Positions 14,844-42,733 of a stretch of DNA of 64,000 nucleotides are shown here, one piece after another. Position numbers and translations under genes: made by a program. Below the pieces are notes generated by a model. That model was not told the origin of the DNA. It saw only the letters and a list, made by a program, of their open reading frames with translations, and made no database searches. Positions within the stretch are counted from its first letter, which is position 1. The number at the start of each line of letters is the position of its first letter. Origin of the DNA: Schmidtea polychroa (taxonomy: Eukaryota); assembly GCA_044892525.1 (NCBI GenBank), contig CM097885.1:139500001-139564000 (forward strand). The letters are read 5' to 3'.

Positions 14844-15593
14844 ATTTAAATGACTTGTCTGGTCGTTGAGTAGTTATAACATCAACTCTAGTAATTGCTT
14901 CCCTCGGTCTATCAAAAATGTGACCTTTTATATTAATTAAATACTTTATAATTACTAATTTTTAATAATTAATTGCAAATTTTAACTATTTCTAATTTTT
15001 TAATTCTTGTTTATAATTTTTTGCCTATTTACAGTAATATTTAATTTCTAAATATAGATTTATTTATTTCTTATTCTATTTCTGGTAATTCTTTTAATAT
15101 GCCTTCTATTTATGGTATTTTAATCTGTACACCGAGGCAAGCCTCAAGAGAGCCAGGCCTAACAAATGTTGCGGGTACACTACTCGGATGACCCCTTTCT
15201 AGTGCAACTTTAGTCTAGAGGATTAATGCCACCTCGATTTCGCCCATCATTTATTTGGTCATCGCCGAGCGGGACCCGTACATAACTTACACTCCAACAT
15301 AGCACCCGTGAATTGCTTCACGTTGGAACTGTGCTATGCCGGCGAGACGCCAGTAAGCAGGTGAGCCAGCTCCTTCGGACTACTCCTTACTGAGGCCTCG
15401 ACTTCCCAACCCTGACTGCCGATAGAAGGACTTACGTCTACTCATTCCGTCGCCCCATCGCAATATTTCTAGCTGAGTTTACCAACTGACTAATGCTCCT
15501 CATAATTTTATGACTCACAATACCATTTACCAATTTCAACTCAACTGTCTTAAGATGAACACAAAGAAAAAAAACGTATGCAGACAAAAATGG

Positions 15594-15599
15594 TTTATT
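15594..15599 (-). terminator. Likely poly(A) signal AATAAA in the 3' LTR
   Basis: Follows the LTR ORF stop and precedes a U/GU-rich tract. Equivalent position in LTRs B and C. Confidence 0.55.
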
Positions 15600-15733
15600 A
15601 TTAAGATTATCACACAAATATATCTAACACCTATACAATAAAGTTCACGACAACGGGAAAAGAGACAAGGTAAAATGTTATCAGACAATGTTCAGGTCAA
15701 TTCAGAGAACGAAGACTTTTTACGGGGAAGTTC

Positions 15734-16484
15734 TCATTTCTCCCACTCCGAGTCTGCCAATAGATCTTCCAAATCGAAAAACTCAGAGGCGTTTTCCTCC
15801 CAGGTAACACCAGCGGCGGAGGTGATTCGCCCTGAGATCACTGATGCTAAATCGATTGCTGTAGGAGGGTTGATGACTTTGATTGGATGATCCGACGATT
15901 GCTGGTTCTGTTTGGCGGTCACGCGTTCCCGCTGTTTCTTTTTGCGTTCGGCTCTCGATAATTGCCGACGCTTCGGCTTCGCTGCCGTTGGATTGGTCGG
16001 GGGTGCTGCAGAGGTAGATGCCATCACAGGTAACGCTTTACTGGTTCCGGTAAAGATGATTTCTGGTTCTTTGGGTGAGAGTTCGGTCTCTACGCACCCA
16101 TGGCAGGACTTTCCGACTGGAGAAGAAGACCCGCCAGAGATATCATGATGCGCTGGGAAAAGATTACTGGATTCATTAATTGGGATCTTCGCGATCTTCC
16201 TTGTAGTTGCTGCCTGGACGTATAATTTGTGCAGCGCCTCCGACTGCTCTTTTATCAGGCTCCTCTGCGCCCGACTCTCGGAAATCAACGCGTCTCTACA
16301 GTGCTCGCTTCGGTGCAGAATTCTTCTGAACCCCCTTCATCTGGGTGGGACTAAACCATGTCCCCTCCAACTCATCTATCCTTCTTTTGTGCTTTCCGAT
16401 TTGGGCCTGGAGCTCTTTGATAATTGAATTCTTGTCGGAGCAAGAAAAACAAGGTCGAAGAACGGTCTTGGAATTTGGCAACAT
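15734..16484 (-). pseudogene. 3' LTR copy of the LTR ORF, frameshifted near 16319
   Basis: GCAGAATTCTTC here versus GCAGCTTCTTC in the 5' LTR splits the ORF into 62-aa and 184-aa pieces. Confidence 0.85.
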
Positions 16485-18884
16485 TTTTGAGTGACTGTGG
16501 AAAAAAATGAAAAATGAAAATAATTAACTCAACGGGAGTGTCACCATCGGACCACCTTCATACTTTATTGATCATAGACAAAAATATGGGTTTACCAGTC
16601 AAGACAAGTTCTACTGTGCGATGGATCCTCCTACCCTTTGGGTCTTAATCATAAGAAGGTAAATCGATCAAACCAGATTTCGCGCCAAGAAAAGAAGATA
16701 TTACCATTAGTGAGAGAAATTCTAGGTCGATGAAAATGATTATTTATTTAATCCGCTTGAAGTCGTTACTTCACGTTTACCGAGAATCGTGTTAAGTTGT
16801 TGACTTCTTCCCCCCGTACGAGTGATTTTGATGGGTGTATCATATACTGGGGTCGAGTGACTATCTATGAAAAAAGGGGGTCCATAATGTCCGTTGATCA
16901 GTTCCTACAGGATAAACGGAAAGTTATTTAATTTCTTTTTTATTATTTATTCATTCTCTCTAATTACTCACATATGTGTTTTACCTGGTTTACATAATAT
17001 TTATTTAATAATATTCGATATTAATGTTAATGATAATCATGTCAAAATGAAATAATTTCTATGCCATTCATGCTAAGATAATAAAGAGAGAATAATCATA
17101 ATTATGATCGGGTTTATCATTAAAAAATATTGTCTTTATGATATCTGAGCACGGTATCAATGTGAGCTAGTAGCCGACCATTCCTGCTAGGTAGATAAGG
17201 AAATGTCAGCCCAGTGGTTGACTATTAATCCGGAGCGGTGAAATCTGATAGCTGTCGGTAGTTTAATTGGCATGTTCGATCTAATTTTACATGAGTAGAT
17301 GCGTGTGTGACTTTGCCTACTGTACTTGGCTACTAGGTAAGTCTGCAACTGGTGACGCATGCAAGGTGCGCTTTCACACACTTAATTATACTACAAATGC
17401 AGGCGTTGAATGTTTGCATGATGGCATTCTCTCAGAATTTTATCCACCGCGTAATCACTCACAATTCTACGGCATATGGTGATGATTTACTAATTCTCAC
17501 CGGATTATTGAAAAAATTATAATTATCTGTATTGCAAATGTTGGATATAGCTTGCTCCAAGGGTGGATTTTTCGTCTTTAATTCCTCAAGCCTAGTTTAT
17601 CAATCTACTCTCTAAGTGCTGGAGGATTTTTTCCTATCCCTGCTGGGTTGCCAACCTCATGAAATACTGGAATTTTATATTTAATTAACAAGATCATCGG
17701 CTAACTTGAAGAAATATATTTTCTTGGTTCGAGTTGGTTGCATTTTTCATTGTTAAATTATTTGATGCCAATAGTTTATGTAATTATGATAATTAATTGT
17801 ATGTAAATTCTTTTATATATAATTCTAAAAATTTATGATAGCGAATCATTTTATGCAATTTAAACTTTTATTTGGAACAAACTCGTTTTTTGTAATTCTG
17901 AATAACTTTTTGGATTAAATCATTTTACATGGTTCTACCATTTATTTACAAGCGGTCATTTCGGGTAATCCTAATACTTGTCTAAAGCAATCTACTTTGA
18001 ACTCCCTTGCAACTATGTCTTTAAGAGAACTTTTAGATGAACGGAATAACAGTTCAGAAGGTCATAGGCTAAAAATCGTCGGAACAGATTCTGAGTGAAA
18101 AGTATGAACATCGAAGATATGTCACAGATAGCCTCACTAAGGTTTGAACAATTCTTGACGCACAACTTACATTGATGATGAAGAAAAAAGTTTTCTTAGC
18201 AAAAACGACATTCGAAAACGATAGTGTGACACCCTCAATCACTGCGCGAATACATCAAAATTCTCCGATTCCTTTATTACATATCTTTGTTTTCAATCAC
18301 TACATGACTATCAATTTTCTGCCACCATTTACCTATAGATTTTAGTCGCACCTTCAGCAATTGGACCCGTGAAGAAGCCCTCACATTTCGGCCCAATCTA
18401 GCTGCGTGATTGAAATACCCTATGTCCACCGGTGGAGCTCCCGAAGGCACCTCACACCATGACATAGAGTATCTCAACGCCACGTTTCTCGCAAGATTGA
18501 ATAGTCTCCAATAATAATTCATAAAAATTAATTCATAAAAGATCAATAATTCTTAACGAGCAAATCATTTATTATTAAGCAAACAATTAATATAAATAGA
18601 GCATTCGAAAATCAAACGAAAAGAAAAACCCTTTTTTTTTTTTTTTTTTTTTTAAATTAAAAATATTATTAAACTATACGCATTACTTAAAAATTCAAAA
18701 TAAGCAATCAAAAATCCTTACCGAATGATTGATACAAGTATGGGCTGAGTCGAAAAGGGTACTATGTCGAATCAGTTAATGCTCGAATATCGTCTAGTTC
18801 TGTAAAAATCTCTTGAATCTTGGAATTGTCCTCGTGAGTTATCGTGCGTTAGTTGCTGGAGTTCTGTTCTGTCGTAGAATAGAT

Positions 18885-18963
18885 TTACCTATTGAGGTGG
18901 TTTGATTAACAGCAAGCTTATTTAAGTTTCACTTACCTATTGAGGTGGTTTGATTAACAGCAA
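18885..18963. repeat. 31-bp direct repeat pair in presumptive U3 (enhancer-like)
   Basis: TTACCTATTGAGGTGGTTTGATTAACAGCAA at 18885 and 18933, and also at 45127 and 45175. Confidence 0.85.
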
Positions 18964-19591
18964 TTGTTATGTTTTTAATGCCTGCTTATATATTAATTTT
19001 TTGTTTGCGCGGACCAATTAGAATTGAGTACCGCTTAATTTTATTAATTTAATTTATTTTCCTTGTTTTTGAGTTATTTCTTCTTATTTTCTTTATTAAA
19101 ATTATGTTTTTATTTATTTTCCTTAATTTTCTTATTATATACTATATTTTCTGTTGTTTTCCGTCATTCTATTGTCCTATTTAATTTTTCTCATCTTTAT
19201 ATTTTTTTGTTTTAATTCTTATTTTCTAATTATTGTTTTTCTTATGTTTTATTCTATTTTATTTGTCAATTTATTTGTTTTTATTTTTTTTTTTTTTTTT
19301 TATTTTATTTTAGTTAAGTTTGCCCTAATTTCCCAACTACCCTTCGACTCAGCCCAACAAATCACTCGGGGACCCATCAAAATTGCGTCCCGCAATTGCA
19401 TAGTTATCTTACTTCATGCATTCATAAAAAGGATATATCGAAACAATTATACTACAATAACAACAACAATTTATTCTAAGATATAGGTCAAATCAAGACC
19501 AAGCAAGTATCACTTAAGGTGATAGTTTGTATATACAATAAAAGTTTCTACATATGATAACACCAATGTTTGAGTTAGAGTTTATGAACTG

Positions 19592-20251
19592 TTAACTATT
19601 TGATGCTTCTGCCGGCGGTTGTTGGTTGGTTTGGGTATTGATGTTGAGATAAGTCTGACTGTAAGAATTCGGCTGGATTGGTTGGTTACTCGGGATTCGA
19701 GGTCGGAATGGGGTTGGGTTAAGATTTGTCAGTGGCACTTCTTGAGGATTTCTGTTCGAGGTTACTCTTATTGATGTCGGGATTCTACATTTATTTCTAA
19801 CTTCGTAAATCTTCATGAGTATTGGTAGACATAGGAGGAGGGTTTCTGCGATCACCACATATATGAGATAATGGGTGTCATTGATTTCGGGAGGTGTTTT
19901 TGGCTTTTCTACAAGATTTTCAAAATTCTCTTGTTGCATTTGTTGTTCCAACTGGTCGAATTGTTGGATTTGTTCGAGGATTTGTTTGTTTATCATTTTA
20001 CAAATGGGATTCTTTTTACACATTGTTTGGATGTTGTTGATGTGTGAACGGGTTGATTGAATGGTTTGGATGATATGGATTTTTACTGTCATAGGGTATG
20101 TGCATTGGCCGGATTCTTGTTTAGGTTCTTGATTTTGATTGCGGTAATCTCGTACGATTTTCGGTTGGGCGTTTACTTGTTTGTTCTCCATCAGAATTAT
20201 CAATACTGTCATTGTTATCATCATCTCGCCTCGCATGATACTATTATACAT
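19592..20251 (-). CDS. Accessory type I membrane protein (signal peptide, Cys/coiled-coil ectodomain, TM, Pro-rich tail)
   Basis: 219-aa intact ORF with hydrophobic MMITMTVLIILM and TM segment YLIYVVIAETLLLCLPILM. Confidence 0.7.
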   Translation of the reverse strand: MYNSIMRGEMMITMTVLIILMENKQVNAQPKIVRDYRNQNQEPKQESGQCTYPMTVKIHIIQTIQSTRSHINNIQTMCKKNPICKMINKQILEQIQQFDQLEQQMQQENFENLVEKPKTPPEINDTHYLIYVVIAETLLLCLPILMKIYEVRNKCRIPTSIRVTSNRNPQEVPLTNLNPTPFRPRIPSNQPIQPNSYSQTYLNINTQTNQQPPAEASNS

Positions 20252-20292: not shown

Positions 20293-21057
20293 TTAATGGT
20301 TCTGATTTGGGTTATTTTCGGCGATTCTCATCAAGGTGGATTCTGCTTTAATGACTCTGTGTCTTAACTCGGGCAGCATTTCCAACTGTCTGTTCTTTTC
20401 ACGGGCCTCCCTTTTCATGTGCCTTATCTCCTTTTTCAGTCTTCTAATTTCTTCCCGTTTTTTGTCGAGATTCCTTTTTAGTTCGATTTGTAGGAAATCT
20501 TGTTCATTTTCCTGCGAAAGGTTTCGTTGCTGTTGTTGTTGTTGTTGTTTTCTCTCGATCTCTTGGTATTTGCGAATCCATTTCTTCATTTCCTCACTTT
20601 CTCGTTGTTTTTCCTCCAATTGTCGATTTAATTTATTTATAGTTATTTGGTGTTCTTTCGCCTCTGTTTTCCAATAATCCTGGATCACTTCTTCTGCCTT
20701 GAAGCTTGCCCTCTCTTGCCATAGTTCCTCTGCAATCTTTTCCCAGTTTCTTCCTCGTGTTCGTTGTTCTTGCAACCATTCATTCTTCTCTTCAGCTTCT
20801 CTCTTTATTTCTCCTAACACTTCGCACTCCTTCTTTAGTATTTTAATCATTTTTCGGTCTTCTATATATTTGTTTACTAGTCTCTCGTTTTCGTCCTTCT
20901 CTTCTCGTAACTTGGCCTTTAACGTTTGTGTTTCTGTTGTTTCTGCCTCAATCTCTCCCTCTTCTACGTCGCTCGTAATTTCTATTATTTCCTCGATTTT
21001 CATATCTGTAATATGTACAGTTAATGGTGCGCTATAGTGCGACTTATACATATACAT
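20293..21057 (-). CDS. Accessory coiled-coil protein, 254 aa
   Basis: Intact ORF, E/K/R-rich heptads, same strand and codon style as the polyprotein. Confidence 0.75.
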   Translation of the reverse strand: MYMYKSHYSAPLTVHITDMKIEEIIEITSDVEEGEIEAETTETQTLKAKLREEKDENERLVNKYIEDRKMIKILKKECEVLGEIKREAEEKNEWLQEQRTRGRNWEKIAEELWQERASFKAEEVIQDYWKTEAKEHQITINKLNRQLEEKQRESEEMKKWIRKYQEIERKQQQQQQQRNLSQENEQDFLQIELKRNLDKKREEIRRLKKEIRHMKREAREKNRQLEMLPELRHRVIKAESTLMRIAENNPNQNH

Positions 21058-21170: not shown

Positions 21171-22226
21171 TTATACGAAGGTTTCCTCCTGTCCCACATA
21201 ACCTTCATCACTATCGACCGCTGGATGCAACTGTATCGCAATAGGGTCATAGGGTAGGTAATATTGGGGGATTTGAGCTCTCAATTCATTAACTTCGTCT
21301 CTTAGAGCTCGAGTGATATTCAGCTCTTCGTCGAGCAGATAAGTGAGATACCTTGTCTCTTCGTCTTTCGCCTCTACTTGTCTATCTAAGGCCTTGATTT
21401 TCTCGTCGCCCTTCCATTTTTCAATTTCTATTTCCAAGTTTTTGATATTTTCGGTATACATTTTCCTCTCGTTTTCTAATTTTCTGTTTTTTCCCGCCAG
21501 GACCATGTTTCTTTGTTCCAACGATCCTTGTAATCCATTAAGGTCTCTTTTCATCTCTTCGACCTGATTTACTAATTCCACAACCCGTCCTGCTTGCTGG
21601 GTTATCATCTCTTCCATTGCGGCATTCTCGTGCTCTCTTATGTCGCATTTTATTGCCAAATGTCGTTCAAACTCCATAGCCTTCATCTGCCATGTTTGGC
21701 TTCGGGCGGCGACCTTTTTCAACCGTTTCAGTTCTTCCTTTATTATTAAATTTTCCTCCCATTTACCCTGTTCGCTCTCATATCCGAGTCTCATGGGCAA
21801 TTCTTTCATCTCTTTTTTCATTTCATTGCTTTGTCTTTTCCATTTTCTCGCTTCTGCCACTAAGTGCATCATTTTCCTTCCTTCTATTTGCTTTTCCGCT
21901 TCGCGCTTGGTGTTCTCATCGGTAAGTCTCTTTCTCGCTTCCTGCACTAGCTGCTTTAAGTAGTGGCTGTGCGCTTCTTGGCGGGTATTTTCTAGTGACG
22001 CCCATTTTGATGCTCTTTTGCATGCTTCTGCTTCCGCTCTTAAGTTGTGTATTAACCATTGGTATTGACTATTCTCATCCTCTCTAGCTTCTTCGATGTG
22101 ATTTCGGGTGAGATTAGTTAGTTGGAACATTACTTTGTTCCATTTTTTGTTATGTTCTCGGGGAATTTGTGTCTTGTTGACATTGGTTGGGGCTATCGCA
22201 GTTTCGGTTAGTTTCTCTTGTGTCAT
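21171..22226 (-). CDS. Accessory coiled-coil protein, 351 aa
   Basis: Intact long ORF predicted to be helical/coiled-coil. Confidence 0.8.
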   Translation of the reverse strand: MTQEKLTETAIAPTNVNKTQIPREHNKKWNKVMFQLTNLTRNHIEEAREDENSQYQWLIHNLRAEAEACKRASKWASLENTRQEAHSHYLKQLVQEARKRLTDENTKREAEKQIEGRKMMHLVAEARKWKRQSNEMKKEMKELPMRLGYESEQGKWEENLIIKEELKRLKKVAARSQTWQMKAMEFERHLAIKCDIREHENAAMEEMITQQAGRVVELVNQVEEMKRDLNGLQGSLEQRNMVLAGKNRKLENERKMYTENIKNLEIEIEKWKGDEKIKALDRQVEAKDEETRYLTYLLDEELNITRALRDEVNELRAQIPQYYLPYDPIAIQLHPAVDSDEGYVGQEETFV

Positions 22227-22419: not shown

Positions 22420-23808
22420 TTACTCCGTTCTACCCTTCTCCTCTTTCCTCACGGTCATCTTGATATACACCGTGTCATTTCTTGCCATATCTTCTACTTT
22501 TTGTTGTAGGATGAACGTAGGTGCTCCTGTTGCTGATCCTTCTTCTGCCGTAGGTCTCTGGTAACACATTTGGTTTCCAGTTGTCTTGAAGCTTTGTTCG
22601 TGGATGCTTCGGTCATTCATTAGTGCAATATCGATTTTTGCCTGGAACGGCCACTCTATTATTTCGTCGTATTCCCCTTTACATAACAGAAAGAAAATCG
22701 AAAAGTGCGTATCTAATCCGGTTCCGTCCCCGTTGGGATATATCTTCATTTTCATTTTGTACCCATTTTTCCAAGAATGGAATGCAGGACTTGTTATTCT
22801 TGTCTCTTCTCCGGTTTTTGCTTTTCGTATTCTTTCTTTTACTCCCGTTATTTTCCATATGTAGGGTGCTGTTGGGGTTATCTCATTTAGATTTATTTCC
22901 CGTATTTTCTGATGTAGCTCCTTGGCCTGATTATTACTGATTTCTATTCGGTTTATTTGCATCTTTATGTTTGCTCGGGCTTCTTCGAACGCTTCCCTTT
23001 CTTCTAGTAGTTCTTTGACTAACACTTTCAACGATGTTATCTCTATCTCCATTTGTTTTACTTTCTCTTCGCTTTCTTGTAACGCAGTCGACCACATTTC
23101 TGCGTGGGTTGAAGCATTTTCTACTAAATGATGTGGTAACTCACCTCGGTGTAGTAGTTTCTGACAACCCCATCTACCTAGTACACATGTCATTCTTTTC
23201 TTTTCGCATTCCCTTAGATGCTGTGCCACCTTCATTATTTCCCCTTGGTTACATCCGTTTGGGCATTCCCCACTGAACTCTGCACATACTCTCTCCTCTT
23301 GGACATTGTGATGTTTGAGGGTGAGATTTTTCCACGTATCTATTTCTCCACAGTGTTCACATCTTTCCAATCTCTCTTCACACTGCCTTTGATGCTCTTT
23401 TTCTTCGCTTGCTCGAATGGTTTTATGGCACCTTTCACACTGGCCAATTCTGTACATACATTCTCCCATATGTTGTACTACCTTCCATATTACTCCTTTC
23501 CATTCGCATGGGGCATTTTTACATCCCAGGTTGGTGTTTAACATGTCTTTCACTGCGGCTTTATCCTCGTTAGTGTCTTCTAAACTCGATATTAGTGTCT
23601 CTTTACACACCGGGCACCTCTGTGGTCTATTCTTTATTGCTTCACTGATACATTCTTTACATACTCTGCATCCACATTGAGTTTGGTGAGGTTCCTTTAA
23701 CAACTTTTCACATATTCCGCACATAACATGTTTGTGTATTCTGATCGTTGTAGATTTTCGGACTTGCTCGACAATCTCTCTGAACTCTTCTCTTTGTCGT
23801 TTATCCAT
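22420..23808 (-). CDS. TRAF: TNF receptor-associated factor homolog (RING, TRAF zinc fingers, coiled coil, MATH/TRAF-C), intronless
   Basis: RING CGIC...CGCRVCKEC...CPVC; zinc fingers CKNAPCEW...HMGEC; MATH YIWKI...SPAFHSWKNGYKMKMKIYPNGDGTGLDTHFSIFFLLCKGEYDEIIEWPF. Confidence 0.93.
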   Translation of the reverse strand: MDKRQREEFREIVEQVRKSTTIRIHKHVMCGICEKLLKEPHQTQCGCRVCKECISEAIKNRPQRCPVCKETLISSLEDTNEDKAAVKDMLNTNLGCKNAPCEWKGVIWKVVQHMGECMYRIGQCERCHKTIRASEEKEHQRQCEERLERCEHCGEIDTWKNLTLKHHNVQEERVCAEFSGECPNGCNQGEIMKVAQHLRECEKKRMTCVLGRWGCQKLLHRGELPHHLVENASTHAEMWSTALQESEEKVKQMEIEITSLKVLVKELLEEREAFEEARANIKMQINRIEISNNQAKELHQKIREINLNEITPTAPYIWKITGVKERIRKAKTGEETRITSPAFHSWKNGYKMKMKIYPNGDGTGLDTHFSIFFLLCKGEYDEIIEWPFQAKIDIALMNDRSIHEQSFKTTGNQMCYQRPTAEEGSATGAPTFILQQKVEDMARNDTVYIKMTVRKEEKGRTE

Positions 23809-23893: not shown

Positions 23894-24253
23894 TTAGGGT
23901 TCGGAAGAGTCGGCTTCGTGTCCGCTCTCCTCTCTATTCATTAACCATTCCGACCAGTCTTCTATTTCTGTCTGTTCTGCTTCCTCCATCATTCTGTTTA
24001 GTTCAATTTCCTGTCTACGGCTATATTGGGTTATCCTCTCTATCTCTCTTTGCATTTGTTCGATTTTCAACCTCTGGTCTTCAATTATCTTCAAATAACT
24101 AAATCCTCTATTCATACTCTCGATTAGGTTTCTGTGCATCGTCAATCCTTGTTCTTGCAAATTGGACACTAATTGTGCTAATACGGCACATTGTTGCTTC
24201 CATAATTCTTCAGTTACTGTATTGTGGTTCATTTCGTTACTTCCTTGATCCAT
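23894..24253 (-). CDS. Accessory small coiled-coil protein, 119 aa
   Basis: Intact ATG ORF between the polyprotein stop and TRAF, with an acidic C-terminus. Confidence 0.65.
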   Translation of the reverse strand: MDQGSNEMNHNTVTEELWKQQCAVLAQLVSNLQEQGLTMHRNLIESMNRGFSYLKIIEDQRLKIEQMQREIERITQYSRRQEIELNRMMEEAEQTEIEDWSEWLMNREESGHEADSSEP

Positions 24254-24412: not shown

Positions 24413-25414
24413 CTATATACGTGAGTTTGGAGGGCGCTGAGCGTTCCAGGCCTCCACCCACTGTTCTTGTTTGATATCACTTGGTCGTTTCACTCGATGT
24501 TGGAAATTTCTGATTCGGGTCATCTCTAGTTCTCCGCGATGTCGTTTATCTTTAATTATTTTTATTGTTCCCCCTGTTATGATTAGGAAGGCCCCTGTTA
24601 TTATTATCCCACTGATCCACATCATCTGCTTCACGCTTATATTCTCTGGTTTCTCCTTGTTCGTTAATGTTGATATCGCTTCTGTACCTTTCTCGTTTCC
24701 TCTTTTGCCATTTCCTTTCATCATTTCCCGTATTCTTGCTATTTCCTCGTTCATACCCTCCTTTGCCATCTTTTGTATTTTTTCCATCTCTTCCTCCGAA
24801 ACATAGTTGTCCTGAGCTTCCTCACCGGTTTTCTTGTGCTTTCCGCCTTCGTCCTTTTCGTCGTTGTTTTTCCTTTTCTTCCCTCTTTTCCCCGGGTATC
24901 GTCGACATTCCCTTTTTGATTCGTTCCTCCAGATACAAACCGTGTATTCTTTCGGCGGCTGCTGCTGCGTCACATATTGATGGCATCTCTCACCTGGTCC
25001 TAATCTTGAAATACAGACTTTGTGCTCTCTTCTAGGTTGGAGCTGCGTTATTACTACTTCACCACCTTTTCCTAGGTGTACCTCTTTTCCTTTAACGTTC
25101 GTTATTCTCTTCCCGTCCCGATTTCGGTATGCTTCTTGTATTCTTACTTCTGTTATTGGTTCTGTGTCCTCATTTATCAGTACTAGTTTCTGATACGCTC
25201 TAGACATGCATCTTCCTAGTATGCACCTTTCCTTTAAGTCCCATTCTTCCTTTAAATCCCACTGCTGCTCTTGTGCTTGCTTTTTCTTTTCTTGTTTTAG
25301 TTCATCCTCTTTGCTATCTTGATTCTCCGCTTCTTTGGTTTCTTTTATCGTTCTCGTCCCTCCATGAGCTGTTACTAACTCTATCATGGTAAGCATAATT
25401 ATCATTAATATCAT
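24413..25414 (-). other. C-terminal polyprotein module: signal peptide, FN3-like ectodomain, TM, short tail
   Basis: Signal-like MILMIIMLTMIELVTA; VVITQLQPRREHKVCIS resembles FN3 strands E-F; TM MMWISGIIITGAFLIITGGTI. Confidence 0.55.
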
Positions 25415-28400
25415 ATTTGTCTCTATTTCTTTGTTAGTGAAAGGTAGGCATACCCTCTGTTTTCCATTATTCGGTTTTTCCTCCTCTTTGGTCTTGGTTC
25501 CCGGGCTGTTTCCCTCTCTTTTCGTATCCAAATCCTTGTTTTCCGGTTTATCCTCTTCCGGTTCTCTTTTCCCTTTATCCTCTTTTCGGCCTTTTCCGTC
25601 ATTGTCATCGTGTTTATCTCCCCCGCTGTCGTTTAAAATGTCGTCCCCGACATTTATATCGTTCAATAATCTGCGATATCCTGTTAGCACTCTGTTTCTT
25701 GCTAATTTTGCTTCGAATTCAAACTCTTTTCTACCCGTTGCAGCATGTCTCTTTCTATTCCATTCTTTAACTAACTCTCTCAATTGCATACGACGATGTT
25801 TCCCAATTCGTTGTTGCTCGTTCTGATTTTTCGTGAATTTTAGGTCTTCTCTATTTAATACTATTAAAATAATTTTAGGCGTCCCCCCCTTAGTTAGGGT
25901 ATTCTTTACCATCGCATTTTCTCCGTTTTCGTAGAATTCGTTTACATTTATCGCATATTTATTATTTTGTGGTACTCTCCAGGTTAATAATAATTTCATT
26001 GCTTCTAGATTTTTCCGTACCGTATTCCATTGAAACTGAGATGTGTTTTTGCACATATTTTCAACTTCTTCTTTTGTCGCATTTTTGAAAATAAATCTGA
26101 TCATTTCTAAGTTTGGCTGTATGGTTGCCCAGTCCAATGTGGAGTTCCCTTCGTTTGATTTTTCGTCTAGTCTCGATCCTGATTGATGTAGGATGTGGAG
26201 TGTTTTTGGGTGTATTTTCGTTATAGCTGCATACATCATGGCGGTTTCACCTTGTTCATTTTTCGTGTTGGTTTCCTCGCCCATCTCCCCAAGGATTCTC
26301 ATGATCGTTATTGCTCTATTCTCTTTTGCAGCTAGTATTGCTTGTTGTAGAGGTGTTCTGGAATCCTTTGTTGCCATCGTAAATGCTCGAGGCAAGAAGG
26401 TTTTGATTTTCCCGATATCTAAACCCGTGGTTTGATCTCTTGCGTATGTGTGTACGGCTTTTATTATTTTTGACAATATTATTTCGTCTGATAGCTCTAG
26501 CATTTCCTCGAAGAATACTTCTTTTGCTTTGCGTATTATTGCCTCTTGATCTAGACTCATTGGTTTTGTTTCGATGACGTGGTTTGTGACCGTTTGGTTC
26601 GTTGTTGACTTTGATTCCCTCGGTTTCTCATACCTTATTTTCGTTTTCTTTCCGTTTAGATTATTGATTCGTTCCTCTGCTGTGAGTATTTGGATAATAT
26701 CCAGGTAATTCTCGCGGATGTTATTCATTGTGTCCATCATATATAACACACTTACCGTTTCCCAATATTTATTTCGTACCTGAGTAATGAATTGAAATAT
26801 TGATCTTTCGAATGTGTCGATTCGCTTTTTTAATAACTGCTCCTCTTTATGATTTGTGAATTTTATCCCTCGTTCTAGTAATTGATTCGGAATTTCGAAT
26901 AAATGATGTCCTTTCATAGCTTCTCTCATCAGCGTGTTCTCTCCTCTCGTGAACGCTTCGTTTACGTTGATCATATAATCGTTTTGAATTGGATTTCTCC
27001 ATGTAATTAATATTCCGGTAATTGTCGTCAATTTTTCTTTGATCGCTGTTAACAATCCATCATACATGTTTCCGACTTCTCGATTGTCCTCATATGATAG
27101 TAGTTCCATCAATGACGTGAACGCCTCGGTACTTCTCCCTTCGATAGCATGATGTAGAGCGTTTTTCCGCTCGTGGTCTTGTGTAGTTATTTTCGATCCA
27201 GTATCAAGTAATGCGGTTATAATGTCTTTGGTTTTGCCTCTGTTTGCTGCTATCATTAATGGTGTGTAACCTTGGTTGTTTGTTTGTTCTGTTGATCGCT
27301 TGCAGTCGTGAAATGCTTCTATTGTTTCTAGTATTTGCTCGTTGTTACCTACTTTCATGAGTTTGTGTAATGGTGTGTCTCCGTAATGATCTGTTATTGT
27401 AAATAATATTGGCCATTGGCTTTTGACTACTCGCAATAATGGGTGTGTCCTTTCTCTATTTGCATAGTTCTCGATCATCGTCAATAATCCTCCTAATATT
27501 TCGAAATCTAATCGATCTTTTGCCCATCCAGGTATTTTAATTTTTACCTCTTTTACAATCTTTTCCGCTTCTGATGGTTGGATACCCAATCGTCCAGTGA
27601 TCGGTTCTGCGAGTTGTTGCATCATGTTCATTCTGTAGGTTTGCGAACGTGTGGTTAATGTACGGCCTTCTGGTTGACTAGTGGCTGTTTTTGGAATTGA
27701 TTTGCATCGTGCCACGTTTACGTATATTGGCCTGGTAAATGGGTTATTTACCAATTTCACTCTTACATTGGTTTCGCCTACGAATAAGATCTCATATGGT
27801 CCTTTTCCGTTGCGTTGTAACTTTTTTGTGGTTCCTGGAATTAATTCCGGGGTTTCTATCATTACCCAATCACCTGTTTGAAACGTATGTTGCTTCACGT
27901 TTTTCTTTCGATCGTGTAAATCTTTATAACTTTCCTGGTAGAACTTGATATTTAATCCCGCAGTTTCCCAAATTTCTTGCATTCTTTCCTTGAATTTCGT
28001 AACATAATCATCGATCTCCATATACTGCGATATCGGTGGTTGGTATTCCAGGTCCATTGGCATATTACACTCTCTTCCGTACATTAATTTGAATGGGCTC
28101 ATTTTCGTTGATGCGTGAATCGACATTCTGTATGCCATAAGACATAGGTTTATATATTCGTCCCAATCTCGTTGGTGACGGTCGACGTAGTTTGATAACA
28201 TTTGTATAAGTGTTCCATTAAATCTTTCCGTCATCCCATTGGTTTGAGGGTGGTATGGAGATGTTCTTAGTTTTGCTATTTTGAAGTAATTTGTTACTTC
28301 GCTCATTATCTCACTCATAAAATTAGTTCCCTGATCGGTTAATATCTGTTTTGGTGTTCCATATCGGCAACATATCTCTTCTACCAAAATTTTTGCGATT

Positions 28401-31400
28401 GTTTTAGCTTTTTGGTCTGGCATCGCGAATGCTTCTGGGAATTTCGTAAGAAAGTCTGTGATCACTAGAATGTAAACGTTTCCTTTATCTGACTCTGGTA
28501 GTGGACCAACTACGTCCATGGATATCATTGTCATTGGTTCTATTGGTACTGGCATTGGCGTTAAAGGTGCTTTCCATTTCGATCCCGTATTCTTCCTGGT
28601 TGCACAAGTTAGACAATTTTTTACCCATTCGGTTACATCTTCAGTTAACGTAGGCCAAAAATATTTCTGTTTCATTCTTGCTAACGTCTTTTTCGATGAC
28701 ATATGTCCTCCCAATCTCCCATCGTGATATTGCGTTAGTAACTCTTTTCGTCGGTTTTCCGGTATACACATTAATCGTTTTTCCCCATCCATTATCAGCA
28801 ACCAATCTTTCTCTATAATATATCGGTGTCGGTGTTTATCCATATGTTCTTTTAATTTTTGGTCTTTCGCATATACATCTGTCTTTCCGGTTTTTACATA
28901 ATCGATAATTTGTTTTAATTCCGCGTCCTCTTGTTGGTCCTTTCGCAATTGACAGAAATCCAAATCTTCCGCTACTATTAAGCATATGCGTTGCATTTCT
29001 GAATCCACCAAATCTGGGAAAATAAATCTTGACATACAATCGGCGTTGGCATTTGCTCTTCCCGCTTTGAATTTTATAAATGGGGAGTATTCTTGCAATT
29101 GCATGGCCCATCTCATCAGTCTACTGGACGCTTCTTTATGTTGCCCTAACCACACTAATGGTTGATGATCGGTGGTTATGCATATCTCATGTCCCCATAG
29201 TAAATATCGGAAGTGTTTGATAGCTTGTATTATAGCCAATGCTTCTCGTTCTGTTACTGAATAGTTCTTTTCGTGCTTTTTGAATGTTCGACTGTAATAC
29301 CCGATTACTCTCTCTTTTCCTTCATCGTCTAATTGTCCCAGAATCGCGCCTGCCGCGTACCCGCTTGCATCCGTTGCCAATAGAAATGGCTTCTTAAAAT
29401 CTGGGTGTACTAGGATAGGTGCTTCGATTAGTTTATCTCTCAGCGTTTCGAACGCCTGTTGTTGTTCTTTTTCCCAAATGAACGAAATATCCTTCTTTAC
29501 TTATTCCTGGATTGGTTTTGCAATTCCTGCATAATTTTTGATAAATTTGCGATAGTATCCGCATAATCCTAGAAATTCCTGAACTTGGGTGACAGTTTTC
29601 GGTGCTGGACATGTTTTTATTTTCTCAATGTTTCTTGGATCTGGCTCCTTTCCTTTAGCTGACACTATGTGTCCCAAAAACGTGACTTTTTCCTTTGCCC
29701 AATCGCATTTTGATGGTTTGAGTTTGAGTTTCCACTGTCTTAATCTAATAAATACGTTTCGGATATCTTCCAGATGTTGTTCAAATGTCGCTGAATAGAT
29801 TAGTAAATCATCAATATATACCATACATTGTTTGATTCCATGGGTGACAAAATTCATACACCGTTGAAATGATGCTGGTGCATTGGTCAGTCCGAATGGC
29901 ATTTTCCTGAATTGATATAGATCTCGTCCCAACGTGAAAGCTGTTTTCTCTTTGTCCTCATCTTTGACTTTAATCTGCCAGTATCCACTTTTTAGATCTA
30001 AAGAAGTAAAATATGCTGCCCCTTGCAACATCAATAACATCTCATTGATGTCCGGCAATGGATAGGTATCTCTCTTGGTTACTGCGTTTAACTTCCGATA
30101 ATCGATACAGAATCGTTGGGTGCCATCTTTCTTTTTTACCATGACCACTGGGAATTGCCAGGGTGAGCAACTTGGTTCGATTACTTTTGCGTCTAGTATC
30201 TTTTGTACTTCTGTTTCGGCTATTTCTTTCTGCATTTCTGCTAGCTTGTATGGTCTCAATGCAATTGGGGTTTCGTCTATGAGTGGTATTGCATGTAAGG
30301 TAACATCACATGTACCCAAGTCTAAATCTGAGATGGCGAATATATCTTTATATTCTACCAACAATCGGTGCAATTTTTTCTTTTCATCATTCGTCAACAA
30401 CATACTATCTATTGTCCATAATTCATCATCTTTGATCATCTCGTTGGTCACTTTCGGTAATTCTATGTCCATCATTGGGGTCAATCTTCCCAATTTTTCG
30501 TTCTCATAAATGATTTTGTCTTCCTCTTCGAAATTCGTGATGTTGAGCGGTATCACTCCTTCTTGGTTTATTGTGATTATTTCCCTTGCGAGTGGTAACT
30601 CTCGTCGCTTTTCAAATGACTTGCTTGGTTCAAAGATAACTTCTCCTTCCATACCCGTATCCACTTTTATCTGACAAATCATCTGCGATTTTGCTGGTAC
30701 TATTATTTTTTCTGGACATCTGATGACTGCATTCATTTTGCATATTCTACCGGTTTTGTCTTTTAAACACATGGTTGTTAAGTCAATTACGACTTCTTTT
30801 AACAATTCTGGCATCAAATCCGTTCCGATTATGCATGGTACGCTAAGGTTTGGTATTACTGCCAAATACGTTTCGATTTCGTTGTCCTGGTATCTCAAAG
30901 TAGTCCACCATCTTCCGACCACGTCCACTGTTTCTTTACTACATGCTATGATGTGAATTGTTGTTGATTCGATATCTTTCCAGTGTTTACTGGGGATTTG
31001 ATTAATCGCTATCGCTGATACATTAGCTCCGGTGTCTATCATAGCATTGGTTTCTTTACCATTGATTTGAATCATAACTGTTACTGCTGGACCTCCAGGT
31101 AGACTCATCGCTGCTATTGTTCTTACGTCATCTGCTTGATCTACACTTTTGGTACGTCGTGTTGGCATATAATGCATACCGGGTTGACTCGGTAATTGCG
31201 GATACATATTTTGTGTCATGGTCAAAGCTGCTTGTGGTCCCACGATATCCGGTGGTATGTAGCTTCCATTGGCGATCCAGGTATTTGTCTTTTCCTTTTC
31301 CCAATATGGTGCCGTTTCCATTGGTTTTTCGTTTGGGTTTCTGTTTGGATATAAACATTTGTCGTTCCCGTTAGCATCGTCGTCACTATCGCTGTTAGAT

Positions 31401-34400
31401 GATTGGCTTCTAAATCTGTCCAAAAATTTTTGCTTATTCTTTTTCAATTGTCGTCTTGTTGCTTCGTCGTACATTACTTTCCGGAATCGTCTGCCTACTT
31501 CCTCGTCGGTTCCTTTAATCTTTGTTAGTATTTTAATCAATCGCTTTATCCGATGAATGTCTTTTGAGTGACCATGTAATACCATGGTTTTAGCTAAAAA
31601 TGGTAGAAAGCCTACTATCATTTTCCAATTTACTTTCTTTTCTCGCTTGTATATATCAAAACACGCTAACATTTGTGTTAGTATTACCCTGACTATCTGA
31701 ATTATGAGTATGATCCCTAATATCCCGGCCATCATTTGTCCAAAAACTAAGAATCTTCCCCACATTGCTTTCATCATGTTTGACGTGGCTTGTTGAAAGT
31801 GGTCTGGCGATAGTAGCAGTTCGTAATTCGGGCCTGATTGATAATTTGTTCCCCCCGTTATTGTAACCATATTTGACAAAATGGATTCTCGTCTGGCTGG
31901 GAAGAGTACGTTAAGTCGTGCTGTTTCTAGATCTTCTGGGGAATACATACCACCGTTTGACACGTCTATAGGTTTGAAATCTAGCTCTGTGGCGAGTTCT
32001 ATTAATCCAAATTTCTTGGGCTCCTCGGATATGGTTTTTCCCGGTAACATCATCCATTTTCCATCGGGCCTTTCATACAAAGGTCCGTATGCATTAGAAC
32101 AGTTAAAGAGATTTGGGTAGAAACCCACTGGATTCATAATTCTAGTGACTGGTTGGACGAATCGATTTTGTCCTTTATAACGGATTTCTAATTCATTTGC
32201 ACATCTCTTTTCGGGTAGTATAGATTTTTCTGGCATTCGTGCATACGTCTTGGTACACTGGTATGTGTACATTACTTCTCCTACCATTCTACCAAAATGT
32301 CCATCCGGTAATGGGAGTGATGGCATCGTGTTATCTGGGTGCGTTATCGCAATAGCTAGCTTTGTTTTCAATATTTCTTTATTCAATGAACAATCGTTTT
32401 GTATCAGATCGTAATATACTTTTTGCAAGGTCGTTTGTCCGCGATGAAATAGAAAATCCATTTTATTATTTGCATATAAGTATAGTTTTACGTCCTCCGT
32501 TGCTATCTTTCCCACTGCTCTATCGATTATTTGTCTCGACATATAGATGCCTGCGTAATTGGTTTTATATACTATACTGTCACATTTGGTGGTTTCTTTC
32601 TCTTTGATAAATCTCATACCTAGATCTGGATCGTCTGTGATTAATGCTGTTGGTGTCTTCTGCGTTGAAAGTCTCTTTTCTCTGGGAGATGGTGGCATTG
32701 GTTTTCCATTTCGCATTCTCACTCTGTCGTTTCCATCCTCGTCGTTCTCGTTCTCATATATTTCTCCTTTTACTTCATTGAACAAAGCACTTTTTAACAG
32801 TTGGAGTCGGCATTTTTGGGTATTAGCTTCATAGATTATAGTTGATACTCCTGTCCTACATACGTTTTCTGTAGCTCTACACGCTGGGTTGGTCTTCATT
32901 TGGTAATTATTTGCGTCAAATTGCGCTTCGTATTCCTTTAGTTCAACCGTATAGGACTCAATCACTACTACCCCCGATATTACTTCGCCTCGGATCGTAT
33001 ACGTACCTCCGTTACATGACCCATCTGATGATTTTACTTTTCCGGATACGTAAACGCTTTCGGTTTTAATCATTCCAGTTTGTCCGTGAATCGTCACTCC
33101 GTTATGCATTTTTAGCGCTCCGGTTCTAAATAGCTATTTACAGTCCTCTCGTTGTATTGATACGATTTCTTTATCCAGACCAGGTAGTATAAGAGTCGAA
33201 TACGAATATTGTCCACAGTAATATGCGAGTACCTTTTTTGATACTACGCATTCCCTTGCTTGCGTTCTGATGAAATCTGATTCTTGATATACATGGTAAG
33301 TAACTTTTGTTCTTACTATGTCTAATTTGTTGGGTGATGCTTGTCTGCATTCTTCTATGTCTCTCAATGAGTATTTATCTCTCATTATCATATTATCACA
33401 ATCGTAGATGGTAAAACCCGTTGCTCCACTGGTGCACAACATCCATATCATCATAGTCATCATTAACGAATTTATTGATGCTTTTCTGCTTGCGGGATCT
33501 TTCATCGGTAGTTCCCATTCTAGTTCATTTAACAGTTTTTTCAATCTAACTTGCATCGACCTTTCTTGCTCATTTTTTCGTGGCGCTTGTATCAGTCTTT
33601 TCCATCCTCCGGCACGAATAATATGTGATTCAATAGTATTCTCTATGATTGAAACGGTCATTTCCACATGATTTGCAAACTGTTTATTTGGTATTTTCCT
33701 CGCGGCTAGTCCCATCAAATTATACATCAAATACGTGATTACCACTAGGTGATGTTCGTCGTCATTTGCGTTCGTCGTGAGCTGTTCAATCACTCTCTTT
33801 GTTTCATCCCAGTCCGTTTTGGTGGTTTTCGTTTTCTCTTTGATTAACTTTGGGATTATCCCCGAAACGATGTGCCATAATTGTCTAGCTTCCGTACTGG
33901 CTACTTTCCGTTGCCACAAACGTCTAAGTTGTGGGTTTGTTATTATTAACATATCTTTTATCAATTCTCGTATCCATTTTTCTCCTCTTTCGATCGTTGG
34001 TTGGGCTTCCTTTAGATCCCATACTATTTTATCCAATTTTTCTAATCGAACTTGCCCTTGTTCTTGCTTTAATTGTTCTTTGGTTTTGAACTCAGACTTT
34101 TCTCCTTGTTTCTTAGGTCTTCCTTTTGCCCGTTTTTCCATCATCGTTCCGGCTTCTCTGGTATTTTCGTAATTCGGATTTCTTTCGTTATCCGTTCTGG
34201 GTAATGAGCTATCGTTATTTCTTAGCCACTCATTCCATTCGTCTATTATTTTATCGGTTTGACCTTCTGGTGTTACTTTCGTTGGTTCTCTTTGCTTCTG
34301 GAATTGTTCATCCGTTTCGGTTTCCGTAGTATTGTCGATGATTTCTTTGATGTTCAGTTTCGTTGGTTGTTGATAACTCGTTGATGGCTGGTTATTAGTC

Positions 34401-37400
34401 CACATTTCGGCTCCTGTCGGCCATCTCACTAATAGCGGTGATCTTTCTCCTGGTTCATCGTCACTATCTTCCAGGATTATCTCTTCAACTTCTTCAGTTT
34501 CATTAGATTTACTTGGTGCTTTGTTCGGACTTGGAGTACTCAAACTGCCTTTTGTTGGTTTAGTAATTTTACTTTTCCTTTTTAACGGTTTCCCCAACGT
34601 TTCGGCCATTGTTAATACATTTGTCTCTTCCAATCTCATGGGTGTTATTCCGACGTCTGCATTATCGTCTAGTGATTTTCCGAATAGTTGCAGATGGAAT
34701 GGAGTTTCATATGCTAATTTCTTTTTTAATTCTCTAATTTTTGTTGTTGGATGCACCTCTAGTTCTTCGATGCTCTTGTCCGGGTACTTGATTCGGATGT
34801 GATACCTCTCTTGGGTGTCTTGTGCCCATTCCTGATTTCTCCATTTTCGAATAATTTGTTCTAGCTGTTCTGGATACCATTCATTATATTGCCGGTATTC
34901 CTCTATTGCCTTTGCCATTCCTCTCAGATTGTGGATGTTCTCTGATGTCTTTAAGATGATGTTAGCCAACGCTACTACTTGGCGTTTTTGATTTTTCGCT
35001 CCCATTGCTAAGATATCGCCTAATTGTTTATATCTTTCTGTCTCTTCTCGTTCTCTTGCTTCCGTCGCTTCCTCGCCGTCCATATCAGCATATTCACGTT
35101 CCTTTTTCCTCATTGCATGAATATGTCTCGCTTCATTTTCGCTTTCTGATGTGACATCCGTCTCGCTTTCGTCATCTGATGTCTGTCCCCTTGCTTCCTC
35201 TTCATATTCTGGAGGTTCCTCTTCTTCTTCCTCCGTTTCACTTTCTGTCTCACCAATGTCTGTTTCTACGAAGATTCCTTTCCGGATTTCCCATTCCTTA
35301 TTTTCAGCATTCCACACTCTTTCCCATGGGGTTCGTCTGCAGGATCTGGTGCTTAATTTCGTGATTTTTCCTTGTAGTTCTTTTTCTTTTAACCATTGTT
35401 GGTGGATTTCAATTATTTCTGTAGATTTCTGATATAACGTTTTCATCCGGTCTCGTATTTCTTTTTGATAGATTACATCTCTTGTTCGAAATTCATCCAT
35501 TGGTACTATCCTGATGATCTGATGATTGTCCCACATACCCAATTCGCTTAACGAGGTGTCGTCTTCTGCTCGTAATATTATTTTATCGTACATCATGACT
35601 ACATCATCCACCATACCATCACTACTTTCGCTACGTACCTTTTCCGTTATCTCTTGGTTTATCTTTGATACCAAGTCATCCACTGTACTCTGATTGCTCA
35701 TTTTTATTCGTCGTTTTTCTTCGTTCGGTAACCATATGGTTATTTCCAACCTCTGTGGCTGGGTTTCTTTCAACCTTCCATATTTGTGGATCAAATTTAT
35801 GGTTCTCCAATCACTCATCCGGAGCATTTCTGTATCTCGCAATCGGCTCATTAGTTCGTACATGGCTGGGGCTCGTCTGGTGATGAGTAGATCCCAGTTG
35901 TCTTCCACTTGTTCTTGAATTTGTTTGATCAGCTTATCCAGGTTTCGTCTCAGAGTACATTGTTTTATTTGTTCTAATTTCAATTTGATATTAAAATCAT
36001 ATTCTGCCTTGGCATCTTTAGCCCAATCGTAAAGGTTGGCTGGTTGTTTTTCTTTATGCAACTTTAGTATTTGCGTTTCTCCTGGCCATATTAGTGCATC
36101 TACTAAGTGCATATCTGGTTTAATCTGTTCTCCTTGGTATTGATACAGATATTCTTTCTTTCTCGAACTTCCCAAATGTTCTCGTATCCAATCGAAAAGT
36201 TCGTCGGTGACTGTATTTTTTATCCACATTCTTTCAAGTCCTCTACTCGTTCCGATTTTTATTACATACCGCGTGGTATCGGCCTGCTTCATTTTTCCCA
36301 TATACTTTTTTATAATTGATTTTTCTTCGTTTGGTATTAGATCTTTCTCGTTTCTTTCCAATTTCATCACTTTTTGCACGAATCGCCTGAATGGTATTAC
36401 GTCGATGAACTCTTGGTTCCTCACTACTACTGGGAGTATTTCGGCTACCTGTTTTATCGCTTCCTCCCTTGCTTTTCTCAACTTTATTTCGATATCTTCG
36501 TCTTCACTTTCACTGGTTATCTCGCTTTCGCTTTCTTCTTCTTTGATTTCCCCTTTTGGAGGTTCGCTTATTTTATTCGGCTGTAGTATTTCTCCACCCA
36601 AACTACTTACATAGTCTTCTTCTTCGTCTGACGATGCTACCTCTTTTGTCCTTTTCATCATATTGATTTGCAAATTTCTCATCCTTGGTACTCTCTTTAG
36701 TTTCTTTCTTTCGAATATCGTTGTTTCTTCTGATTCTAATTCTTGTAGCATTTGGTGGTTTAGTTGACTGGTTTGTTCCTTGCTCTTGTTATTTTCATCT
36801 TCTGTCTCGGCTTTCGCTTTATTATGTTCTTTTTCGATTTTATCTTTTATCTTTTTCCAGAATATTTTCTGAATTCTCTGGTTTCCTTTTAAAATCGTGG
36901 TTGAATTCTCTGTTTTCATTTCCGTTGTTGTTTCTGTTACCTTTTCTGGTTCAGTCATGGGTACTACCCTTGGGTTTTTCCCGTAATTGTAGCAATACTG
37001 GCTTTTCATGTCTTTTACTAACTTCATCATATTAATTCGCAATGGTTGTTCTTGTCGTTGTTGGTTGCGTTCTTGTTTTATCCTCTCTTCCTCGGCCTGT
37101 AGTCTTTGCCATTCTTGTACATGTTGATGCACTTCATAATTGTTGAGATTTTCGGTACTCCTCATCATACGTATATTCTGGGTTTGTTGTGGTGCTGATT
37201 CCGGTCTCGGTCTCATCATTTGTTGCATCATCTGTTTCATCTGCGAGATTTCCTGCATAACGTTCATTTGTTTTCCTTCGCTAGGGTTACTTTGTCGTTG
37301 CGGATTCGCCATATAATTATTATTTCGCTGTGGTGGTCGTTGTTGTTGGCCCCTTTCTCGGCAATCTCTGGAGATGTGACCTGGCTGACCACAGTTAAAA

Positions 37401-41381: not shown

Positions 41382-41399
41382 ATCCCGGCTGAGCCCCCA
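41382..41399 (-). promoter_or_regulatory. Primer-binding site (tRNA-Pro-like) of element A
   Basis: TGGGGGCTCAGCCGGGAT has 16/18 identity to the canonical tRNA-Pro PBS. A 7-nt spacer TAATTTT separates it from the LTR. Confidence 0.85.
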
Positions 41400-42723: not shown

Positions 42724-42733
42724 TTTTGAGTGA

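What the first reader, a model, noticed from the sequence alone, without database searches (positions are those of the whole stretch)
22420..23808. Complete intronless TRAF carried as retroelement cargo
Seen: RING, zinc fingers, coiled coil and MATH are all intact. The RING has Cys where the C3HC4 His normally sits (CGCRVC). Established: TRAFs are adaptor E3 ligases downstream of TNFR/TLR, and TRAF/MATH family expansions are reported in planarians. Inference: it is a decoy or modulator, and mobile copies could inflate host TRAF counts.
Basis: partly seen in the sequence, partly recalled or inferred. Interest (0 to 1): 0.72.

Follow-up and report, generated by a model that had tools for sequence, protein, structure and literature searches.

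The report
Full TRAF gene inside Burro retroelement
A giant retrovirus-like jumping element, of a kind already known from planarian flatworms, carries a complete intron-free copy of a host-type cell-survival signalling gene (TRAF) as a long-standing accessory gene; such cargo was partly known, but a whole free-standing copy behind the replication genes is a new layout.

Summary
Observation confirmed. 22420-23808 (minus strand) is one 462-codon ORF with RING, five zinc fingers, coiled coil and MATH. It lies between the polyprotein and the 3' LTR of a 30.4-kb Gypsy-type element (15167-45597; 4.2-kb LTRs, 99.4% alike; 4-bp target duplication) that matches the published planarian Burro family.

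It is not a chance insertion. The ORF has the element's base composition, and in sequencing runs it is covered 13-35 times deeper than the flank, with 85-100%-identical variants. It groups with four unnamed, equally A-rich TRAFs on the planarian side of the tree.

The His-to-Cys RING change does not indicate a decoy: named planarian and echinoderm TRAFs share it.

TRAF/MATH cargo in Burro is in print, within the polyprotein or as an upstream ORF. New here: the complete, free-standing, downstream form, beside a cIAP-type RING ORF.

Most likely role (inferred): a working adaptor that keeps the expressing cell alive or damps stress and immune signalling. Verdict: new variant of a known kind.

The parts
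22420..23808 (-). TRAF ORF, 462 aa, intronless
23605..23721 (-). RING (C30-C68), all eight ligands Cys; Cys47 at 23668-23670
23104..23523 (-). five TRAF-type zinc fingers (aa 96-235)
   Evidence: Pfam only weak
22888..23115 (-). coiled coil (aa 232-307); 13 of 19 a/d positions hydrophobic in the best register
22444..22863 (-). MATH / TRAF-C domain (aa 316-455)
41407..45597 (-). 5' LTR, 4191 bp, TG...CA, with 5-bp inverted ends; holds a 262-aa ORF at 41974-42762
15167..19359 (-). 3' LTR, 4193 bp; 16 mismatches and 8 gap columns against the 5' LTR
15163..15166 (.). target-site duplication, left copy (CAAA)
45598..45601 (.). target-site duplication, right copy (CAAA)
41380..41399 (-). candidate primer-binding site, 7 nt inside the 5' LTR; likeness to a tRNA-Pro 3' end is recalled, not tested
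40595..41158 (-). upstream accessory ORF with a cIAP-type RING and no BIR domain
   Evidence: cIAP2 RING E=2e-11
33134..38611 (-). long frame, piece 1: gag, three CCHC knuckles, weak ubiquitin-like and Bcl-2-like stretches, start of the fusion glycoprotein; ends at an in-frame stop
   Evidence: (ubiquitin E=0.012, Bcl-2 E=0.065)
29501..33133 (-). long frame, piece 2 (same phase): rest of the Monjiviricetes-type glycoprotein, protease, RT; ends at an in-frame stop
24413..29500 (-). long frame, piece 3 (same phase): RNase H, integrase, ankyrin repeats, tail with two hydrophobic segments
23894..24253 (-). downstream accessory ORF, 119 aa, no family
21171..22226 (-). downstream accessory ORF, charged, coiled-coil-like, no family
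20293..21057 (-). downstream accessory ORF, coiled-coil-like (Fib_alpha E=0.002, under cut-off)
19592..20251 (-). downstream accessory ORF, 219 aa, one hydrophobic segment
23810..23824 (-). T-rich stretch ending in AG one base before the TRAF ATG: candidate splice acceptor
   Evidence: inference

Best explanation
SHOWN: a complete TRAF2/3/5-type gene (RING, five fingers, coiled coil, MATH) is a fixed accessory ORF of a multi-copy Burro-like LTR element family, placed 3' of the polyprotein among five tandem ORFs, and resident long enough to have taken on the element's base and codon bias. INFERRED, origin: it came from the planarian TRAF radiation through an RNA intermediate, hence no introns. 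INFERRED, expression: it is made from a spliced sub-genomic RNA using the acceptor-like AG just before its ATG. INFERRED, action: it trimerises through coiled coil and MATH and works as a real adaptor and ubiquitin scaffold. With the element's cIAP-type RING ORF and its weak Bcl-2-like stretch it would keep the expressing cell (stem cell or progeny) alive and damp stress and innate signalling while a 30-kb RNA and a fusion glycoprotein are produced.
For: Position between LTRs with a target duplication. Third-position A 0.45 in TRAF against 0.44-0.46 in the long ORFs, and codon-usage r=0.79; the one host-side ORF compared has A 0.37, T 0.40. Summed contig depth over TRAF is 13-35 times the flank in 4 of 4 runs and 0.7-1.1 times pol in 3 of 4. 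Listed contig pieces over TRAF run from 0 to 48 differences per 270-800 bases; 5 of the 6 have no gap (table 8). All 4 listed internal indels fall in spacers that are 4.6% of 19592-32400. Tree: with four A-rich relatives 98/94; the planarian side (16 rows, holding all 4 named planarian TRAFs) against 23 other TRAFs 100/100. All zinc ligands are kept. cIAP-type RING ORF in the same element. TRAF2 recruits cIAPs and protects from death in mammals (PMC4769158, passages). Planarian TRAF RNAi raises cell death (PMC7586133). Acceptor-like AG before an early ATG in 6 of 6 accessory ORFs: 6 of 14 ATGs tested, base rate 42 of 541.
Against: No function or expression was shown. No dN/dS for TRAF: only 40 of 2867 variant sites were listed, and the 2 in TRAF are at codon positions 1 and 2. 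The indel test covers 12 of 143 indels and is not significant for TRAF alone (about 0.4 expected there). TRAF/pol depth is only 0.13 in run X2, and the tool says summed depth is no copy number; three of the four runs are one study, possibly the source sample. Rare contigs skip parts of TRAF (table 5). The RING ORF lacks the BIR domain through which cIAPs bind TRAF2 (recalled). The Bcl-2-like call is below cut-off. Shared composition may pull the A-rich rows together (warning). The acceptor test was made after seeing the sequence, and spacers are T-rich; with AG alone it is 8 of 14, P=0.03. This copy's polyprotein has two in-frame stops.
Confidence: 0.55

Rival explanations
1. Dominant-negative decoy: it enters host TRAF trimers or occupies receptor tails but cannot pass the signal on.
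For: The MATH groove has drifted: the Pro-Asp and first serine kept in fish TRAF2, shark TRAF3 and two planarian TRAFs are replaced (their role in peptide binding is recalled). The RING has Glu where TRAF6 has a Leu two residues after the conserved Ile (importance for E2 binding recalled).
Against: The Cys-for-His change is shared with cellular TRAFs. The known dominant-negative TRAF2 lacks the RING, whereas here the RING and all fingers are kept. The Ile and Pro of the E2-binding face are kept.
Confidence: 0.2
2. Counter-defence ligase: MATH binds a host restriction factor (for example of the PIWI pathway or RNA sensing) or an element protein, and the RING ubiquitinates it. The role is in the replication cycle, not in cell survival.
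For: Altered MATH groove; ubiquitin-like stretches and a second RING in the element; Burro is under PIWI control (PMC8532177, passages).
Against: No substrate evidence. The five-finger TRAF2-like build points to an adaptor, and TRAF2's own ligase activity is disputed.
Confidence: 0.15
3. Neutral passenger: captured once and carried along without benefit.
For: No direct selection estimate; rare deletion variants exist; published Burro elements place MATH differently.
Against: An open 462-codon frame with every zinc ligand intact, although the protein is about 65% diverged from its nearest relatives and fully re-biased in composition; mostly gap-free variants at 85-94% identity.
Confidence: 0.08
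4. Chance insertion of a host retrocopy into this single element copy.
For: None beyond the lack of a second full copy in hand.
Against: Depth far above the flank, diverged variants, contigs in run X2 running from TRAF across the next ORF and from there into the polyprotein tail (23331-24124, 24095-24676), element-type composition.
Confidence: 0.02

Closest known systems
Burro1 / GYPSM1 of Schmidtea mediterranea (Jurka 2007; Grohme 2018; as described in PMC6431247 section 7)
   Same: Over 30 kb, Gypsy order PR-RT-RH-IN, one giant frame (about 4,600-4,700 codons here, 4,873 there), gag with three CCHC knuckles, env between gag and protease, ankyrin repeats, MATH_TRAF_C present.
   Different: There MATH_TRAF_C is a domain inside the polyprotein and BIR is present. 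Here no MATH is found in the polyprotein, the TRAF is a complete separate ORF 3' of it, and no BIR was detected.
Burro-like element of Dugesia (Girardia) tigrina (PMC6431247)
   Same: Polyprotein lacks MATH; MATH_TRAF_C sits in a separate accessory ORF.
   Different: That ORF is upstream; here it is downstream, and the upstream ORF is a cIAP-type RING. The text does not say whether that ORF also has RING and fingers (figure not seen).
Cellular planarian TRAFs (Dendrocoelum TRAF-2, -4, -5; Dugesia japonica TRAF2-like A; Smed-TRAF-2A/B)
   Same: Same domain order, 29-33% identity, same Cys-for-His RING in the three Dendrocoelum proteins, same side of the tree.
   Different: A-rich residue make-up, altered MATH groove, lies inside an LTR element.
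Vertebrate TRAF2/3/5 and the TRAF2-cIAP module
   Same: RING, five fingers, coiled coil, MATH; best structural matches.
   Different: His ligand replaced by Cys, groove residues changed, shorter coiled coil; the element's IAP-type RING has no BIR.

Membership tests
TRAF family | C-terminal MATH/TRAF-C domain | tested here: met
   Pfam E=4e-26; PDB sequence and fold matches
TRAF family | coiled coil (TRAF-N) before MATH | tested here: met
   helix 232-307 at pLDDT about 90, heptad pattern
TRAF family | N-terminal RING | tested here: met
   eight Cys ligands instead of C3HC4
TRAF family | TRAF-type zinc fingers | tested here: met
   ligands align with TRAF2/3 relatives; Pfam weak
TRAF family | trimer formation and receptor-tail binding | not tested
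TRAF family | ubiquitin-ligase or ligase-recruiting activity | not testable with these tools
   needs in vitro assay
Burro giant LTR elements | about 30 kb with multi-kb LTRs | tested here: met
   30,431 bp, LTRs 4.19 kb
Burro giant LTR elements | Gypsy order PR-RT-RH-IN in one giant frame with gag and CCHC knuckles | tested here: met
   same phase throughout, two in-frame stops in this copy
Burro giant LTR elements | env-like fusion glycoprotein in frame between gag and protease | tested here: met
   PF24664 E=6e-52 and 2e-10
Burro giant LTR elements | ankyrin repeats | tested here: met
Burro giant LTR elements | MATH_TRAF_C in the polyprotein or an accessory ORF | tested here: met
   accessory ORF, downstream
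Burro giant LTR elements | ubiquitin/SUMO-like and Bcl-2-like motifs before env | tested here: inconclusive
   right places but E=0.012 and 0.065; Atlas leads under 0.9; low-confidence model
Burro giant LTR elements | dUTPase-like stretch between protease and RT | tested here: inconclusive
   no Pfam hit; the stretch is conserved with P0164
Burro giant LTR elements | BIR domain (Burro1) | tested here: not met
   no BIR in any ORF scanned; an IAP-type RING is present. The review does not make BIR universal.
Burro giant LTR elements | sequence or RT-tree grouping with deposited Burro1-4 | not testable with these tools
   no named Burro sequence was returned
Burro giant LTR elements | planarian host | tested here: inconclusive
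   inferred from nearest named TRAFs; run labels are coded

The most novel reading that the evidence does not exclude
A distinct, A-rich TRAF subfamily in planarians exists only as Burro cargo and makes up a real share of the unexplained planarian TRAF/MATH expansion. The reported piRNA destruction of many 'traf' and ankyrin mRNAs would then be anti-Burro defence or its spill-over onto host genes. In the boldest form the element seeded part of the host family: the tree cannot tell nested from sister (AU p=0.44).
Probability: 0.3. Interest if true: 0.72.

Novelty: new variant of a known kind. Interest (0 to 1): 0.42.

Why it matters
Planarian papers count 121-282 MATH/TRAF transcripts and call the expansion unexplained; in those checked the words Burro or transposon do not occur in that context. 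A complete TRAF riding in a multi-copy element gives a cheap test: sort annotated TRAFs by composition, introns and LTR context. It also offers a reason why SMEDWI-3 piRNA targets are enriched in TRAF-finger and ankyrin domains, both Burro cargo. Three placements of the same cargo in three elements (in-frame, upstream, downstream) suggest that the module is kept while being shuffled, which bears on the open proposal that Burro tampers with host apoptosis and ubiquitination.

Tried and rejected
No whole genome was held, so copies could not be counted or aligned.

Context searches found nothing: TRAF in viral contigs, in metagenome contigs and in phages; env in viral contigs. The 80 loci fetched with P0164 matched only over protease/RT; 0 of 80 carried TRAF, env or another accessory ORF. 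The search for longer, fused forms gave 5 multi-MATH proteins and none with retroelement domains.

No RNA holder was listed. Run X7 is only guessed to be RNA, so it is not used as evidence of expression.

The Bcl-2-like stretch gave no PDB sequence hit, no Atlas hit, and a pLDDT-45 model with only generic helical matches. Rfam found nothing in 15000-46000. The bacterial promoter scan is irrelevant here. Complex prediction of the TRAF trimer with the RING ORF was not available: no verdict.

Grohme 2018 is not held and Jurka 2007 was not read; both are known only through PMC6431247. A non-standard code for the two stops was considered and dropped: only two occur in about 4,700 codons. An IQ-TREE run on 121 rows timed out; FastTree on 121 rows and IQ-TREE on 39 hand-picked rows were used instead.

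Full report
OBSERVATION. The minus strand at 23808-22420 is one open frame of 462 codons. Pfam finds MATH (E=4e-26) and a RING just over its cut-off. TRAF3, TRAF1 and TRAF2 are the best solved relatives by sequence and by fold of a pLDDT-81 model. Cys/His spacing gives five fingers at residues 96-235, and the coiled coil spans 232-307. Residue 47 is Cys where TRAF5 and TRAF6 have His.

SETTING. Two 4.19-kb direct repeats, 15167-19359 and 41407-45597, are 99.4% alike (16 mismatches, 8 gap columns), begin with TG, end with CA and are flanked by a 4-bp duplication. The element is 30,431 bp and recently inserted. On the minus strand it reads: LTR, candidate primer site, cIAP-type RING ORF, long leader, a 14.2-kb frame, five short ORFs of which TRAF is the second, LTR. 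The long frame holds gag, three CCHC knuckles, a Monjiviricetes-type glycoprotein, protease, RT, RNase H, integrase and ankyrins. It keeps one phase but has two in-frame stops in this copy (33134-33136, 29501-29503). Ubiquitin-like and Bcl-2-like signals lie before env but are below cut-off.

WHAT IS KNOWN. This is the layout of Burro, the giant Gypsy-like elements of planarians. I read section 7 of PMC6431247 in full, without its figure. It reports MATH_TRAF_C inside the Burro1 polyprotein and in Burro-2 to -4, and in an upstream accessory ORF of a D. tigrina element, and proposes that Burro meddles with apoptosis and ubiquitination. So TRAF-domain cargo is published. Seven literature searches listed no paper that describes a complete downstream TRAF ORF or ties the planarian TRAF expansion to Burro. 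Grohme 2018 was not held; its extended data may show this layout. An earlier AI note reports another Burro in this genome; I did not test it.

IS TRAF A FIXED PART? (a) Composition: third-position A is 0.45 in TRAF and 0.44-0.46 in the long ORFs, codon usage r=0.79; the single host-side ORF compared differs. (b) Contigs of four public runs, 4 of the 15 listed: summed depth over TRAF is 35, 18, 14 and 18 times the flank, and 1.06, 0.13, 0.71 and 0.73 times pol. The tool warns that this is no copy number, and three runs are one study. (c) Six listed pieces over TRAF carry 0, 7, 22, 32, 44 and 48 differences in 270-800 bases, five without gaps; pieces in X2 run from TRAF across the next ORF and on into the polyprotein tail. 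(d) Of 12 listed indels (143 in all), the 4 internal ones all fall in spacers that are 4.6% of the span; this supports the ORF array, not TRAF alone. Against: low-depth contigs skip parts of TRAF, and the 2 listed TRAF variants are at codon positions 1 and 2. A chance insertion is very unlikely; selection strength is unmeasured.

ORIGIN. Among the 150 best hits, those with a name and high full-length score are planarian: Dendrocoelum TRAF-2, -4, -5 and Dugesia TRAF2-like A. In IQ-TREE on 39 chosen rows the window protein groups with P0004, P0001, P0017 and P0023 (98/94), on a 16-row side that holds all four named planarian TRAFs and is split from 23 other TRAFs at 100/100 (FastTree on 121 rows agrees). 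Those four are the four most A-rich-coded of the fetched proteins under 760 aa, and the window protein falls among them. They are therefore probably element-borne too, but they are unnamed and have no context, and shared composition may aid the grouping. Whether this clade is nested in or sister to the cellular planarian TRAFs is undecided (AU p=0.44). The host is inferred to be a planarian; no call names it.

THE RING CYS. Of 151 relatives, 91 matched a RING pattern: 62 His, 12 Cys, 17 other. The Cys set includes Dendrocoelum TRAF-2 and TRAF-5 and TRAF3-like proteins of Antedon, Anneissia and Asterias; Dendrocoelum TRAF-4 has it by alignment. Cys is a zinc ligand (established), so the change is a shared variant and no sign of a decoy. 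The Ile and Pro that face E2 in TRAF6 are kept, a neighbouring Leu is not (roles recalled). The MATH groove has drifted from both vertebrate and planarian TRAFs, which leaves a changed partner range open.

MECHANISM. Expression: each of the six accessory ORFs has a T-rich stretch ending in AG 1-4 nt before one of its first three ATGs (6 of 14 tested, base rate 42 of 541, P=4e-4; AG alone 8 of 14, P=0.03). The test was post hoc, so spliced sub-genomic RNA is a hint only. Action: mammalian TRAF2 recruits cIAPs and protects from death, its ligase activity is disputed, and a RING-less form is dominant negative (PMC4769158, passages). Planarian TRAF knock-down causes cell death and lysis (PMC7586133, first 10,000 characters and passages; PMC8807557, passages). 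With an IAP-type RING and a weak Bcl-2-like stretch in the same element, a working pro-survival adaptor is my best reading (0.55), ahead of decoy (0.2), counter-defence ligase (0.15), neutral passenger (0.08) and chance insertion (0.02). All functional steps are inference.

WIDER LEAD. S. mediterranea has 121-282 MATH/TRAF transcripts, most lacking full domains, and the expansion is called unresolved (PMC6109357, passages). SMEDWI-3 piRNA targets are enriched in TRAF-finger and ankyrin domains (PMC6824462, passages; supplements not read). Both are Burro cargo, and 'Burro' does not occur in that paper's main text. The link is my inference and is testable. Other papers seen as passages only: PMC11663942, PMC8532177, PMC11410931, PMC7958881.

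VERDICT. Real, a member of the TRAF family by all four domain tests, and a resident gene of a Burro-like element. New variant of a known kind: complete, free-standing and downstream. Interest 0.42.

Noticed in passing
window 676-1882, 2824-2904, 8226-8854, 10422-10835: Decayed 5' parts of related elements: gag (74% aa), RING-ORF and LTR-ORF homologues. No TRAF remnant in the window outside 22420-23808.
   Followed up: partly
window 41974-42762 and 15734-16523: A 262-aa ORF lies inside the LTR. It is open in the 5' LTR, shifted by one base in the 3' LTR, and conserved (37% aa) in an older element at 10422-10835.
   Followed up: partly
window 40595-41158: cIAP-type RING ORF without BIR directly behind the primer-binding site; its N-terminal 120 residues have no family.
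   Followed up: partly
window 39631-40031: 74-bp tandem repeat, 5.4 copies at 99%, in the long leader before gag; a 44-bp repeat sits at a similar place in the older element (8028-8145).
   Followed up: no
window 19360-19380: No clear polypurine tract before the 3' LTR.
   Followed up: no
window 38266-38611: The first Met of the gag frame is at codon 116, yet the frame upstream is conserved in the older copy (51-60% aa), so the true start may lie further up.
   Followed up: no
window 24416-25430: The polyprotein tail after the ankyrins has two hydrophobic segments around a Cys-containing stretch, like a small membrane protein; no family.
   Followed up: no
window 47654-48145: bHLH ORF (Pfam HLH E=4e-5) 2 kb outside the 5' LTR, with host-type composition.
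   Followed up: no
window 52547-53179 and 63525-63998: Tc1/mariner-type transposase remnants (DDE_3 E=3e-14 for the first; the second judged by eye).
   Followed up: no
P0010 residues 15-52: An unnamed TRAF of the cellular-type planarian clade begins with a stretch weakly like this element's integrase C-terminus (E=0.012): a gene-model fusion or a second TRAF behind an integrase.
   Followed up: partly
P0164: Unnamed 1023-aa protein with env, protease and RT in the Burro order (59% and 46% identity); its own contig was not retrieved.
   Followed up: partly
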